A stretch of DNA of 13,958 nucleotides, taken from the UHGV virus genome UHGV-0194130, one strand, 5' to 3'. The position numbers were made by a program. The DNA comes from a virus. Shown piece by piece: positions 6,001 to 9,000 of this stretch; the stretch's first letter is position 1, and the number at the start of each line of letters is the position of its first letter.

Positions 6001-9000
6001 AAGTTATAATCTGATTTTGCTACAATGCTCATGTTAGTTTCCTTGCATACGGTTACTGACATAGAGGCCCGGTTTGTGTTCGCGCACTGCCGGGCTTCAC
6101 TATTTTTACTGGGCATTAACTCTTTCCTCTCTCAGGCTTTTAGCCAGTCGCTGCACAATCGCAGAGTTGATAGAAATTCCATCCATTTCAGCAACACGTC
6201 TAATCTCCTCCTTCATTCGCGCTGGCAAACGAAGCTGGAAACTTTGACTTTTACGACCTGTGTAAAGCACATCTTTCATAAGTAATCCTCCCACAATGAT
6301 ACCAACTTGGTTCTAGAACCAATTTAACACCATTTGTTTTGATGTCAAGTTGGTGCTATTGTTTAGCGAACATCTTTACGTTGAGGTCATATGAGCAAGT
6401 TCCCTAGTCATGAAATGGATAGGTTCAATATCAGGCTTCCGGCAGGAATGCGGGATGCTATAGCCTTAAGAGCAAAGGAAAACGGCAGATCAATGAATAC
6501 AGAACTAGTGTTTATCATTGATGATGCATTGAAGTCTCCGGTGCCTGCTGAGGTTGATAACTCAAGGATTATGAAGATTTACTCAAACCTCTCCGGGAAC
6601 AGGCCATCAAACAAAGAAGAGTTTGAGCGGTGGGAGAATGAGCTAGTCAAAGCAATTTTCTACTTACTAGATAGCATCAGTTCTCATTCGCAAATGTATC
6701 AAGCTCTCAGGAGCTTAAGGCAAGATGCATATAAAAATGTTTTTGGCGATGATGCTGAAGACATCCAGTTTTGAAGACCATTTCATCTGGTATCCTGCAC
6801 AAAACTAAGGAGGTTGGTGTGCTTGAATGGTTTCTGTTGGCTGCATTAGTCGTTTCTGGTTTGGTGTATGAGTATCGAATGCACTCTCTAACAAAAAAAA
6901 TAGGAATTCTAGAAAACGAATATTGTGCTCTCAAATCCTCACTGGAACGTGAGCAAGGGGACTTAAAAATCTCTCTGTCTAGCATTGAGCGTTCTATAGA
7001 GAGCTTAGAGGATAAGGTTGATCGTATAAAGAATGAGGATATTCATGATATTAAGGACGACATATCCTTCTTAAAATCTTGGTTGAAAAATGTTGGGAAA
7101 ATTGCCACATCAACACGAGATAAGCTCAATCCATCCATGGATGACTAATTACTCCTGTGCCATTCCGCTTAGCGATGCCACAATTCCAGCTCTTGCTAAA
7201 CGCTGGAACTCTTCGTTTCCTAGTGCCTCGCGTATTGCTTTTACGGCGGCCTTATTTGCCATAAATCTGCGTTCCGCCGCCGCTAATGCACCATCACTTG
7301 CCCCAACCTTAACTGCCTTTGTTGCCTCTTGAACAGCCTTTTCAATAGCGTAACGACCGCTTCTAGTTGCGGATAATTTCGCTATCGCTCCTTTTGCCAT
7401 TGCATCAATTGCCCCACCTGCAGCGCCACCCGCTATTGCTCCAATAACGCCTCCTCCAGAGAACCCTGCGATAGTGCCAGTAGTTCTAAAAGCGCCAGAC
7501 AATGCGCTCTCTAAAACTGGATGAAGGCCATTCTCAAGAGTGCTAATGGCTGGCATAGATCGCCCTGTCTGTTCAACATATCGAAGTGGCTTTGTTGCTG
7601 CTCGTGCAAGTTCTCCGTATGAACTTGTAATCCTGCCAAGTTCTGGAGAATATCGACTAATTGCCTTCACGTTTTGTGGGGTAAGAATAGTCGCGATATG
7701 CTTAATTCCAGCCTCTTCAGACTTACCTCCGCGTACCCCTTGCGACATTGCATCTTGTAATATTGATGCAATTGCTGGCGCGCGTTCCGACTCAGGTAGG
7801 GCGCTTATTATTTTATGGAACTGACCTGTTCCACTTTTTGCTGAACCCTGTAACGCCTTAGATCCATTAGTTACCAACTGATCAGTTGCAAGGTCTCTAC
7901 CAAACGCTGCTTCAGCCTGTTCTTGTGCTGTAAATCTTGCCTTTGACAGATCATTAGCTTTTTGCCAGTCATCAAGAAAACCGCCATTTTGAGCCATTAT
8001 GCGCATATCTTCCGTTGCTGCATCACGAAGCTCAGCCATGCGCCTTGCCGTATTTGCCTCACCAGACCTTATATACTTCTGCTCTGCGTCAGCAAGTTTA
8101 CTTCGCCATGCCTTCATGGCATCAAACGTGATTCCTTTTTTACCAGTTTTAGCATAAGCAGATGCGAATTGTTTCATCTCAGGAGTTAGCGGCATGCCAG
8201 CCAAAATATCACCCTGAATTGTAGCGTTCAGGTTTGACATTCTGGCCTTTGCGTCAGGCATCGTGGAGCGGACGCTATCCCATGCAGCCTTTTCTGAATT
8301 TTTCATTTTATCAATACTTGCCAAAACCCTTTGTTTTATGGCTGCACTTTTTTCTGATGCAGTTCCTGCTTCAGCCCCAAACTCATCCAATGCTGAGTTA
8401 AATTTCGACTCTATTTCACTGAATGCTTTGGTGTGTGCATCCTGTGTAATTCCGGGCTTTGACGCCAGAATCCCCTCCGCCTGAGCAAGACCACGACTAC
8501 CTGATCTCATGCCAGGAGTTAATGCGTTGATATCTATTCCAGCAGTATCTGCTGCTTTTGCTATTTCGTCTGACACATTAGCTGACTGTCTGGCAATAAT
8601 CTCTCTTCCTGTACCAGACTTTGCCATTTTCGAAACATCAGCAGCGGAATTTATTGCCCCGCCACCAAGAACTTGAGGTGATTTAGAGGTTAAGATCCTT
8701 CCAGCCCCAGAAAGTATCCCCTGAGCACCAATATTGATACCACCGTTAATGGCAGCATTTTGTGCAAAGTCGCCCTCCTGATTTGCAGCATCAGCAAGAG
8801 AACCTGCAATCATGTTTCCTGCGGAACCGATATCTTCAGCGAGCTTTGCTGGCGCTCCAGCAGCTTTTGCCGCTGTGCCAATTGGCAGGAGATACCCACC
8901 AATTGTTTCACCGGCTTGCGCGTAAGGGTCTGTCGGTCGATCGACTGGACGATAGACATCATCCAATACTTTTGGCCCACCAAGCCCCTGACTGATTGCA

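What the first reader, a model, noticed from the sequence alone, without database searches (positions are those of the whole stretch)
6280..6390. Perfect 16-bp palindrome TTGGTTCTAGAACCAA as operator of overlapping divergent promoters
The palindrome (6307..6322) overlaps the -10 and predicted start of the leftward arc-bro-ant promoter (-35 TTGACA, -10 TAAATT) and lies upstream of a candidate rightward promoter for the mnt-like gene. This is the geometry by which P22 Mnt and Arc shut off Pant. The sequence differs from the P22 operators as I recall them, suggesting a distinct specificity. Flanking CCAACTTGG / CAAGTTGG motifs may be the second operator.
Basis: partly seen in the sequence, partly recalled or inferred. 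Interest (0 to 1): 0.45.

Follow-up and report, generated by a model that had tools for sequence, protein, structure and literature searches.

The report
Three-operator switch of a Mnt-like repressor
The perfect 16-bp palindrome is real, but it is most likely the seam between two of three 13-bp operators through which a P22 Mnt-like prophage repressor is predicted to control an antirepressor operon and its own gene; this is a new variant of a classic phage switch, not a new kind of element.

Summary
TTGGTTCTAGAACCAA lies at 6307-6322, between a leftward arc-like/antirepressor operon and a rightward 127-aa Mnt-like gene. It sits just downstream of a strong leftward promoter (TTGACA-16-TGtTAAATT).

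About 250 homologous cassettes all carry three 13-bp sites of format pentamer-3 bp-inverted pentamer. In the window these are:
- O_L 6300-6312, TACCA-ACT-TGGTT
- O_M 6317-6329, AACCA-ATT-TAACA
- O_R 6343-6355, TGTCA-AGT-TGGTG

The 16-bp palindrome is O_L's right half, plus CTAG, plus O_M's left half. Its centre varies among close relatives. O_L-O_M spacing varies from 16 to 20 bp across families, while the 5-3-5 format stays fixed.

Site sequence tracks the N-terminal arm and beta-strand of the Mnt-like protein, across seven specificity classes and two natural chimeras. It does not track the Arc-like protein. The P22 and ST64T mnt operators have the same format, and O_L sits 8 nt after the -10, exactly as in P22.

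I found no operator for the Arc-like protein. Protein binding is inferred, not shown.

Verdict: a new variant of the P22 immI switch, of moderate interest.

The parts
6307..6322 (.). Perfect 16-bp palindrome TTGGTTCTAGAACCAA. It consists of the last base of O_L's centre, O_L's right pentamer (TGGTT), the CTAG spacer, O_M's left pentamer (AACCA), and the first base of O_M's centre. It contains the predicted leftward transcription start (~6314).
6300..6312 (.). O_L: TACCA-ACT-TGGTT (11-bp perfect palindrome ACCAACTTGGT, centre 6306). It is the positional equivalent of P22 O_mnt: its core starts 8 nt after the -10. It covers about +3 to +15 of the leftward transcript.
   Evidence: Relatives have perfect 13-19-bp palindromes at this position (L031: TGGCACCAACTTGGTGCCA).
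6317..6329 (.). O_M: AACCA-ATT-TAACA (centre 6323). It overlaps the -10 of the leftward promoter. Its right half is degenerate, because it is also the -10 and the TG extension.
   Evidence: The equivalent site is a good palindrome in families C and D and near-palindromic (about 4 of 5 pairs) in B and F.
6343..6355 (.). O_R: TGTCA-AGT-TGGTG (centre 6349). The left half is the -35 of the leftward promoter. The right half overlaps the TG of the rightward extended -10.
6321..6348 (-). P_left (analogue of Pant): -35 TTGACA 6348->6343, 16-nt spacer, TG at 6329->6328, -10 TAAATT 6326->6321. Predicted start ~6314.
   Evidence: The -35, the TG and the -10 are invariant in 41 family-A cores.
6334..6362 (+). 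P_right (analogue of Pmnt), inferred: -35 TTGTTT 6334-6339, 17-nt spacer, extended -10 TGcTATTGT 6354-6362. Predicted start ~6369.
   Evidence: TGCTAnnnT is conserved in family A while the inner -10 positions vary. TGnTAnnnT, TGnCAnnAT or TACAAT occupies the same place in other families. The consensus scan did not list it.
6391..6774 (+). Gene for the 127-aa Mnt-like repressor: N-terminal ribbon-helix-helix domain (beta-strand R11-F-N-I-R15), then a helical C-terminal domain.
   Evidence: Pfam PF03869 Arc, E 1e-16. Best solved relative is Mnt 1mnt, E 2e-8. AF2 model has helices 20-30, 35-48, 57-69 and 75-121.
6106..6279 (-). Gene for the 57-aa Arc-like protein (beta-strand S-F-Q-L-R), first gene of the leftward operon. 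SD GGAGG at 6291->6287.
   Evidence: Pfam Arc, E 9e-12. Best natural solved relative is P22 Arc 1arq, E 1.4e-5; top hit overall is the engineered pArc 1u9p, 4.4e-10.
5394..6032 (-). Antirepressor-type gene (Bro-N plus P22_AR_C domains). RefSeq places the start at 6032 in an identical E. coli prophage; the open frame extends to 6116.
4577..5356 (-). Second downstream gene of the leftward operon. No Pfam hit. A bidirectional terminator-like hairpin follows it at 4537-4558.

Best explanation
The 111-bp region between the arc-like and Mnt-like genes is the control region of an immI-type 'ant moron'. It carries three related 13-bp operators, O_L, O_M and O_R. Each has the format pentamer-3 bp-inverted pentamer, with consensus nACCA-nnn-TGGTn. 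They are read by the N-terminal ribbon-helix-helix domain of the 127-aa Mnt-like protein, probably as a dimer of dimers per site, as for P22 Mnt.

O_L lies over +3 to +15 of the strong leftward promoter that drives arc-like, bro/ant and the next gene. O_M lies over its -10. O_R lies over its -35, and at the same time over the extended -10 of the weaker rightward promoter of the repressor gene.

Inferred logic: in a lysogen the repressor fills O_L and O_M first. That shuts off antirepressor synthesis and frees the overlapping rightward promoter. At higher concentration it fills O_R and limits its own synthesis.

The perfect 16-bp palindrome is the seam of O_L and O_M: two inverted half-sites joined by CTAG. 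It is most likely not a recognition unit of its own.

Shown by the sequence data: the sites, their format, their conservation, their co-variation with the Mnt-like N-terminus, and the promoter elements. Inferred: protein binding, stoichiometry, order of filling, and transcription start sites.
For: 1. Architecture. About 250 loci with a homologous Mnt-like gene all show three 5-3-5 sites at the same places.

2. Unbiased count. There are 80 perfect 5-3-5 palindromes in the 120 nt upstream of the gene, against about 13 expected. Most are family-specific and lie about 93 nt upstream of the start codon.

3. Co-variation with the Mnt-like beta-strand:
- RFN[IV]R -> nACCA
- KFM[LV]R -> TGTCA
- RFT[VI]R -> CATCA
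- KFTVR -> AGGCA
- KFVVR -> TGGCA
- (KDY)DKFNLR -> TGsCA
- (QMQ)DKFNLR -> TGTTA

4. Independence from the Arc-like protein. SFQLR-type Arc-like proteins sit next to the ACCA, TGTCA and CATCA site sets. The ACCA set sits next to six Arc-like types.

5. Natural chimeras. L015/L016 have window-type sites plus the first ~25 aa, fused to a Stx-phage-type remainder. L257 has a QMQDKFNLR N-terminus fused to a window-type C-domain, and carries TGTTA-type sites. In E. coli genomes, alignments break at the arc start codon (window 6273-6279) or within the Mnt-like N-terminal domain (window 6497-6503, codons 36-38).

6. Same format and position as known mnt operators. P22 has GTCCA-CGG-TGGAC starting 8 nt after the -10. 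ST64T has GACCA-CGG-TGGTC. The window's O_L also starts 8 nt after the -10.

7. Homology. The best solved relative of the 127-aa protein is Mnt, and R11/N13/R15 align with Mnt H6/N8/R10.

8. Footprint. The core is 60/67 identical to Oslo, against 74% in the coding regions and 55% in the adjacent UTRs.

9. The junction is not a fixed unit. O_L-O_M spacing is 16-20 bp and varies inside families C, D and G. The inner 6 bp of the palindrome vary within family A.
Against: - There are no binding or transcription data; everything is comparative.
- O_M and O_R in the window match the half-site consensus at only 6 of 8 core positions each.
- The O_L/O_M junction is also strongly palindromic in family B (L004: GTGACATGATGTCAC, perfect 15 bp) and family D (L017: TGATGTCATGACACCA, 7 of 8). 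In family A the inner three pairs match on average 2.0 of 3, above the 0.75 expected by chance, although the sequences are related by descent. Some selection on the seam therefore cannot be excluded.
- The operators and the Mnt-like N-terminus are physically adjacent, so part of the co-variation could be linkage.
- The beta-strand pentamer alone does not fix specificity: KFNLR goes with two site types.
- The role of the Arc-like protein is unexplained.
Confidence: 0.65

Rival explanations
1. The 16-bp palindrome is itself the primary operator: one tetramer sits on TTGGT...ACCAA, with cores 10 bp apart on one face of the helix. The flanking motifs form a second operator.
For: The symmetry is perfect and this is the longest palindrome in the window. 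The 10-bp spacing of the TGGT/ACCA cores suits two RHH dimers on one face. The outer TTGG...CCAA is nearly invariant in family A. Junction palindromes also occur in families B and D.
Against: The inner 6 bp vary among close relatives that have the same beta-strand. The spacing of the two half-sites changes by 1-4 bp between and within other families. The half-sites are everted, and spaced by 4 bp rather than 3, compared with the P22 and ST64T mnt operators. Family C has direct repeats at this junction and no palindrome.
Confidence: 0.15
2. The Arc-like 57-aa protein binds the palindrome or the same three sites, alone or together with the Mnt-like protein. This would be autoregulation, as for P22 Arc.
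For: The gene is the first in the operon, as arc is in P22. TCTAGA contains the TAGA box of the P22 Arc operator on both strands (sequence; for the P22 sequence). SFQLR-type Arc-like proteins occur only with families whose third half-site base is a pyrimidine (A, B, D). That would fit a protein that reads only the inner positions.
Against: Identical Arc-like beta-strands occur with three different site sets. TCTAGA occurs with both SFQLR and VFNLR Arc types, and is absent from many SFQLR loci. The only k-mer shared by all SFQLR loci is the -35 (ATGTCAA). The P22 O_arc position, between -35 and -10, is the least conserved stretch of the core.
Confidence: 0.12
3. The palindrome is a chance feature, or it acts at the RNA level as a hairpin in read-through late transcripts. 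It would not be a protein-binding element.
For: 22% of simulated windows contain a 16-bp palindrome. Late-operon transcripts cross this region on the minus strand in P22-like phages (PMC2629481).
Against: Conservation far exceeds that of the neighbouring UTR and coding sequence. There is no U-run after it, and the stem would be only 6 bp with a 4-nt loop. The predicted start of the leftward transcript lies inside it.
Confidence: 0.03

Closest known systems
Bacteriophage P22 immunity I region (mnt, arc, ant, O_mnt, O_arc, Pant/Pmnt, sar)
   Same: - It occupies the same genome slot, the 'ant moron' between the gp16-type injection gene and the tailspike gene (PMC2629481).
- It has a divergent Mnt-like gene and an arc-ant operon with overlapping divergent promoters.
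- An odd-centred 5-3-5 operator starts 8 nt after the -10 of the ant promoter.
- The N-domain is homologous to Mnt, and the small protein is homologous to Arc.
- There is a candidate sar-like antisense RNA over the ant RBS.
   Different: - There are three operators of one family instead of one O_mnt plus one O_arc.
- No element is present in the O_arc position.
- The half-site is ACCA rather than GTCCA.
- The inferred transcription starts are about 55 bp apart, against about 37 bp in P22.
- The 127-aa protein has a larger C-terminal domain with no detectable similarity to Mnt's.
- The antirepressor is a Bro-N/P22_AR_C protein, followed by a second gene.
Phage lambda O_R (O_R1-O_R2-O_R3 between P_R and P_RM)
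   Same: It is a tripartite operator between divergent promoters. The outer site overlaps the repressor's own promoter, so graded occupancy could first repress the lytic-side promoter and later the repressor gene. This parallel is inferred.
   Different: The repressor has a ribbon-helix-helix fold rather than helix-turn-helix. The sites abut (17 bp centre to centre). There is no Cro analogue known to read the same sites. No cooperativity data exist.
Other RHH repressors with arrays of short repeats (MetJ met boxes, CopG, AmrZ)
   Same: Several dimers sit on short repeats spaced 7-11 bp apart. Pentamer centres here are 8 bp apart within a site, like the 8-bp met boxes. AmrZ is the second-best solved relative.
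   Different: Those systems are not antirepressor switches, and their repeat sequences are unrelated.
ST64T / phage L type ant moron (mnt only)
   Same: The window also contains this type. An 85-aa Mnt homologue lies next to the tailspike gene, with a palindrome where ST64T has AAGACCACGGTGGTCTT.
   Different: That is a second, separate module at 4161-4550. It is not the one that contains the palindrome.

Membership tests
P22 immI-type antirepressor control module | A Mnt-type repressor gene divergent from an arc-ant operon, located between the injection-protein genes and the tailspike gene | tested here: met
   ORF map. P22-like late genes on both sides. Pfam Arc domain in both small proteins, and Bro-N + P22_AR_C in the 240-aa protein.
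P22 immI-type antirepressor control module | The repressor is homologous to Mnt (RHH N-domain with beta-strand contact residues at Mnt positions 6, 8 and 10) | tested here: met
   Best PDB hit is 1mnt, E 2.3e-8; DRFNIRLP aligns with PHFNFRMP. 46% identity to Mnt over the N-terminal ~50 aa.
P22 immI-type antirepressor control module | A C-terminal tetramerisation domain like that of Mnt | tested here: inconclusive
   There is no sequence match beyond residue ~53. The AF2 model shows a helix at 57-69 plus a 47-residue helix at 75-121, which is compatible with an oligomerisation domain. The oligomeric state cannot be tested here.
P22 immI-type antirepressor control module | An odd-centred palindromic mnt operator over the start of the ant promoter | tested here: met
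   O_L 6300-6312 starts 8 nt after the -10, as GTCCACGGTGGAC does in P22.
P22 immI-type antirepressor control module | A separate 21-bp Arc operator between -35 and -10 of the ant promoter | tested here: not met
   The 6330-6342 spacer is the least conserved part of the core, and it differs between the window and Oslo although their Arc-like beta-strands are the same. No motif follows the Arc-like type.
P22 immI-type antirepressor control module | The sar antisense RNA over the ant ribosome-binding site | tested here: inconclusive
   Promoter-like site at 5997-6026 on the + strand. Two hairpins and a U-run at 6033-6105, z = -5.9. No Rfam match. The intercistronic region is absent from Oslo, where arc and ant overlap.
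P22 immI-type antirepressor control module | The repressor binds the operator and represses the ant promoter | not testable with these tools
   Needs EMSA or footprinting and reporter assays.
Ribbon-helix-helix operator (general) | Repeated 4-6-bp subsites, inverted or direct, spaced 7-11 bp apart, whose sequence depends on the beta-strand side chains | tested here: met
   The 5-3-5 format occurs in seven specificity classes, and half-site bases 2-3 change with beta-strand positions 1 and 3.

The most novel reading that the evidence does not exclude
This widespread enterobacterial ant moron may be run by a single Mnt-like repressor through a lambda-like tripartite operator. The Arc-like protein would have no private operator: it would either share the same sites by reading their inner, less variable positions, or act elsewhere. 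The family would then offer at least seven naturally orthogonal repressor/operator pairs. They seem to follow a simple readout rule: at beta-strand position 1, R or Q goes with A, K with G and H with T at half-site base 2; at position 3, N goes with C, M with T and V with G at base 3. The N-terminal arm modulates this rule. That would make RHH specificity predictable and portable.
Probability: 0.3. Interest if true: 0.6.

Novelty: new variant of a known kind. Interest (0 to 1): 0.4.

Why it matters
Antirepressor modules decide whether a prophage, or its neighbours, are induced. This cassette occurs in E. coli, Salmonella, Klebsiella, Yersinia, Cronobacter, Enterobacter, Serratia, Photorhabdus and Edwardsiella phages, including Stx-converting phages.

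In the searches I could run I found no paper on its control region. The analysis here gives testable operator coordinates. It also gives a natural series of specificity swaps, including chimeras, which could be used to work out how RHH beta-strands read DNA and to build orthogonal repressors.

For the scan itself, one point matters: the most eye-catching symmetric element in a control region can be a by-product of two adjacent real sites.

Tried and rejected
1. In-phase array. I considered an array of TGGT/ACCA cores at 6309.5, 6319.5, 6330.5 and 6352.5, with CACCA 6328-6332 as an extra half-site. I rejected it. The CCATTG that follows O_M occurs in all families whatever their half-site. It is explained by the TG of the leftward extended -10 and the TTG of the rightward -35.

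2. Search for an Arc-like operator. I tried comparison by Arc type within family A, a cross-table, k-mer enrichment (which returned only the -35), the direct repeat 6259-6276 / 6360-6377 (absent from Oslo), and the 13-bp palindromes inside bro at 5849-5861 and 5899-5911 (at chance frequency). Nothing convincing emerged.

3. The genome-contig scan with the single protein gave only 6 loci. IMG/VR scans with an alignment were far more productive.

4. The Rfam search of 3800-7300 gave no family above threshold.

5. A TAAATT -10 paired with the TTGACA of O_R in family B does not work, because the spacing is only 7 bp. An extended -10, TGaTATCAT, between that family's O_L and O_M is more likely. Promoter assignments outside family A are therefore tentative.

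6. An invariant CA/TG in all half-sites does not hold: the QMQDKFNLR class has TGTTA.

7. Symmetric co-variation of the outermost pentamer base in O_L is weak.
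Full report
**Observation.** The sequence TTGGTTCTAGAACCAA is at 6307-6322 and is a perfect palindrome. It is the longest perfect palindrome in the window. A palindrome this long appears somewhere in 22% of simulated 14-kb sequences, so its length alone proves nothing. Its place and its conservation carry the weight. It lies in the 111-bp gap between a leftward 57-aa gene (6106-6279) and a rightward 127-aa gene (6391-6774). The promoter scan finds, on the minus strand, TTGACA (6348->6343), 16 nt, TAAATT (6326->6321), with a TG extension. 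The predicted start (~6314) therefore falls in the middle of the palindrome. They belong to a longer inverted repeat, 6293-6309 / 6346-6362.

**Context.** The window is the late right end of a P22-like (HK620/Sf6-like) E. coli prophage. Head-completion and injection genes and the tailspike gene lie on the minus strand. An identical cassette sits in a prophage at the argW-side intS site of E. coli E7476. The region between the gp16-type gene and the tailspike gene is what Casjens and colleagues call the 'ant moron'. In P22 it holds mnt, arc, ant and sar (PMC2629481).
- All three small proteins of the window carry the Pfam Arc domain.
- The 240-aa protein is Bro-N plus P22_AR_C.
- The 127-aa protein's best solved relative is Mnt, and its DRFNIRLP aligns with Mnt PHFNFRMP.
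- The 57-aa protein's best natural solved relative is P22 Arc.
- An AlphaFold model of the 127-aa protein gives the two RHH helices, a low-confidence linker, and then a helix at 57-69 plus a 47-residue helix. This is compatible with an oligomerisation domain but is not proof of one.

**Relatives.** The cassette (arc-like, antirepressor, divergent Mnt-like gene) occurs in unrelated phage backbones. Examples are Salmonella siphovirus Oslo, SPN3UB, Klebsiella phages, Stx-converting phages, Edwardsiella GF-2, and Photorhabdus and Izhakiella genomes.
- Against Oslo, the coding regions are 74% identical and the UTR pieces next to the genes 55%. The core 6296-6362 is 60/67 identical, and six of the seven differences fall in 6336-6342. 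This is a clear phylogenetic footprint.
- Three IMG/VR scans with an alignment of N-terminal domains raised the set to about 250 loci.

**What the repeated unit is.** Every family shows three 13-bp sites of the form pentamer, 3 bp, inverted pentamer. In the window they are O_L TACCA-ACT-TGGTT (6300-6312), O_M AACCA-ATT-TAACA (6317-6329) and O_R TGTCA-AGT-TGGTG (6343-6355).
- An unbiased count of perfect 5-3-5 palindromes in the 120 nt upstream of the Mnt-like gene gives 80, against about 13 expected. Most are family-specific and lie about 93 nt upstream of the start codon, that is at O_L.
- In close relatives O_L is a perfect palindrome of up to 19 bp (L031: TGGCACCAACTTGGTGCCA).
- The 16-bp palindrome is the right pentamer of O_L, CTAG, and the left pentamer of O_M.
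- Among 41 distinct family-A cores, the outer TTGG...CCAA is kept. The inner six bases vary freely (TCTAAA, TCTACA, GCTAGT, GCCAGT, ACCACA, ACTACA). Only the window, Oslo and L083 lineages have 8 of 8 pairs.
- Across families the O_L-O_M centre distance is 16-20 bp, and it varies inside families C (18-20), D (18/19) and G (18/20). The 5-3-5 format never changes. O_M-O_R stays at 26-27 bp, as the -10/-35 spacing demands.
- A binding unit straddling the junction would not tolerate that variation in spacing.

**Comparison with the known mnt operators.** I recalled the P22 control sequence from memory and checked it: 52 of 52 bases match P22 records.
- In P22 the order is TTGACA, 17 nt, TATATT, CTCAATAG, GTCCA-CGG-TGGAC.
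- In the window's minus strand the order is TTGACA, 16 nt, TAAATT, GGTTCTAG, AACCA-AGT-TGGTA.
- The operator core starts 8 nt after the -10 in both. ST64T has GACCA-CGG-TGGTC upstream of its mnt.
- O_L is therefore the positional and formal equivalent of O_mnt. The even 16-bp palindrome has its half-sites everted and spaced by 4 bp, which is a different docking geometry.

**Which protein reads the sites.** The site sequence follows the Mnt-like N-terminus:

| Mnt-like beta-strand | Half-site |
|---|---|
| RFN[IV]R | nACCA |
| KFM[LV]R | TGTCA |
| RFT[VI]R | CATCA |
| KFTVR | AGGCA |
| KFVVR | TGGCA |
| KDYDKFNLR | TGsCA |
| QMQDKFNLR | TGTTA |
| ST64T Mnt, QFNLR | GACCA |
| P22 Mnt, HFNFR | GTCCA |

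- The site sequence does not follow the Arc-like protein. The SFQLR type sits beside the ACCA, TGTCA and CATCA sets. The ACCA set sits beside six Arc-like types.
- Two natural chimeras act as swap experiments. L015/L016 keep the window's intergenic region and the first ~25 codons, joined to a Stx-phage-type remainder. L257 joins a QMQDKFNLR N-terminus to a window-type C-domain, and carries TGTTA sites.
- In 43 E. coli genomes, alignments to the window stop either at the arc start codon or within the Mnt-like N-terminal domain, around codons 36-38.
- Both genes are equally close to the operators, so simple linkage does not explain the asymmetry.
- Caveat: the beta-strand pentamer is not the whole code, because KFNLR goes with two site types that differ in the N-terminal arm.

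**Promoters and logic.**
- The leftward -35, TG and -10 are invariant in family A. O_R's left pentamer is the -35, and O_M contains the -10.
- For the rightward gene, TGCTAnnnT (6354-6362) is conserved while the inner -10 positions vary. This is the signature of an extended -10. Comparable elements follow O_R in other families.
- TTG at 6334-6336 fits a -35 at 17-nt spacing. The consensus scan did not reach its threshold for this promoter, so it is inferred.
- The two promoters overlap: the leftward -35 lies between the rightward -35 and -10.
- I infer that occupancy of O_L and O_M silences the antirepressor operon and relieves competition for the rightward promoter. I also infer that occupancy of O_R limits repressor synthesis.
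- O_M is centred about 46 bp upstream of the inferred rightward start. P22 O_mnt lies about 44 bp upstream of the Pmnt start that I derive from the sequence.

**What remains open.**
- I could not find an operator for the Arc-like protein. The P22 O_arc position is the least conserved part of the core, and no motif follows the Arc-like type.
- Some selection on the seam cannot be excluded, because junctions are also palindromic in families B and D.
- In family A the inner pairs match more often than chance, although the sequences share descent.
- I found no paper describing this control region. The searchable library is incomplete.

**Verdict.** The palindrome is real and functional in context. 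It is best read as the seam of two of three operators for the 127-aa Mnt-like repressor. This is a new variant of the P22 immunity I design: three Mnt-type operators, no Arc operator in the P22 position, and a different half-site. It is not a new kind of system.

Noticed in passing
window 5997-6105 (+): Candidate sar-like antisense RNA. A promoter-like site TTGGAA-18-TACAAT with TG lies at 5997-6026, with a predicted start ~6033, right at the bro/ant start codon (6032). The RNA would cross the bro RBS and fold into two hairpins, the second followed by a U-run (z = -5.9). No Rfam family matches. Oslo lacks this intercistronic region.
   Followed up: partly
window 4161-4550: Remnant of a second, P22/ST64T-type immI. 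An 85-aa Mnt homologue (beta-strand QFHLR) lies next to the tailspike gene with arc and ant missing. The palindrome TACCG-AAA-TGGTA (4220-4232) sits where ST64T has AAGACCACGGTGGTCTT. Its half-site (ACCr) is of the same type as the 127-aa protein's O_L, so the two repressors might cross-talk. A second ACCC-ATT-TGGT lies at 4273-4283 over the SD of this gene. It corresponds to a different palindrome in ST64T (CACTTACAAAAGTG), which could mean an RNA hairpin conserved in structure.
   Followed up: partly
window 6771-7148 (+): A 125-aa ORF with one predicted membrane helix and a coiled-coil-like tail. Its TTG start overlaps the stop codon of the Mnt-like gene, so it would be co-transcribed with the maintenance repressor, like an exclusion or conversion gene. 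It has no Pfam hit, and other prophages with the same repressor carry different genes here (L019).
   Followed up: no
L015/L016 (E. coli SBF22, DETEC-E601) and L257 (Logan SRR18067525): Natural chimeric Mnt-like genes. The recombination joints lie just after the beta-strand and early helix A. The operator set always goes with the N-terminal piece.
   Followed up: yes
L031 (about 20 nt upstream of the Mnt-like ATG), L056 and relatives: Some family-A lineages have an 18-bp palindrome in the 5' UTR of the Mnt-like gene that touches the SD: TCAAAATTACAATTTTGA or TGATACAAATTTGTATCA. The window lacks it. It does not follow the Arc-like type. It may be a translational hairpin or a further operator.
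   Followed up: partly
L017/L018 (E. coli 730V1, KSC207): The same Arc-like gene as in the window is paired with a truncated (pseudogene) Mnt-like gene of the RFTVR class and with CATCA-type sites. There is also an extra TGTCA-type palindrome (CGTCATAATGACA) between O_L and the arc SD, possibly a relic of another specificity class.
   Followed up: no
window 1-1716: Beyond the tailspike gene lie an IS200/IS605-type TnpB ORF (1-1131, minus strand) and a YbcL-like (PEBP family) ORF (1240-1716, plus strand). These assignments rest on my reading of the translations. I did not check them with a search.
   Followed up: no
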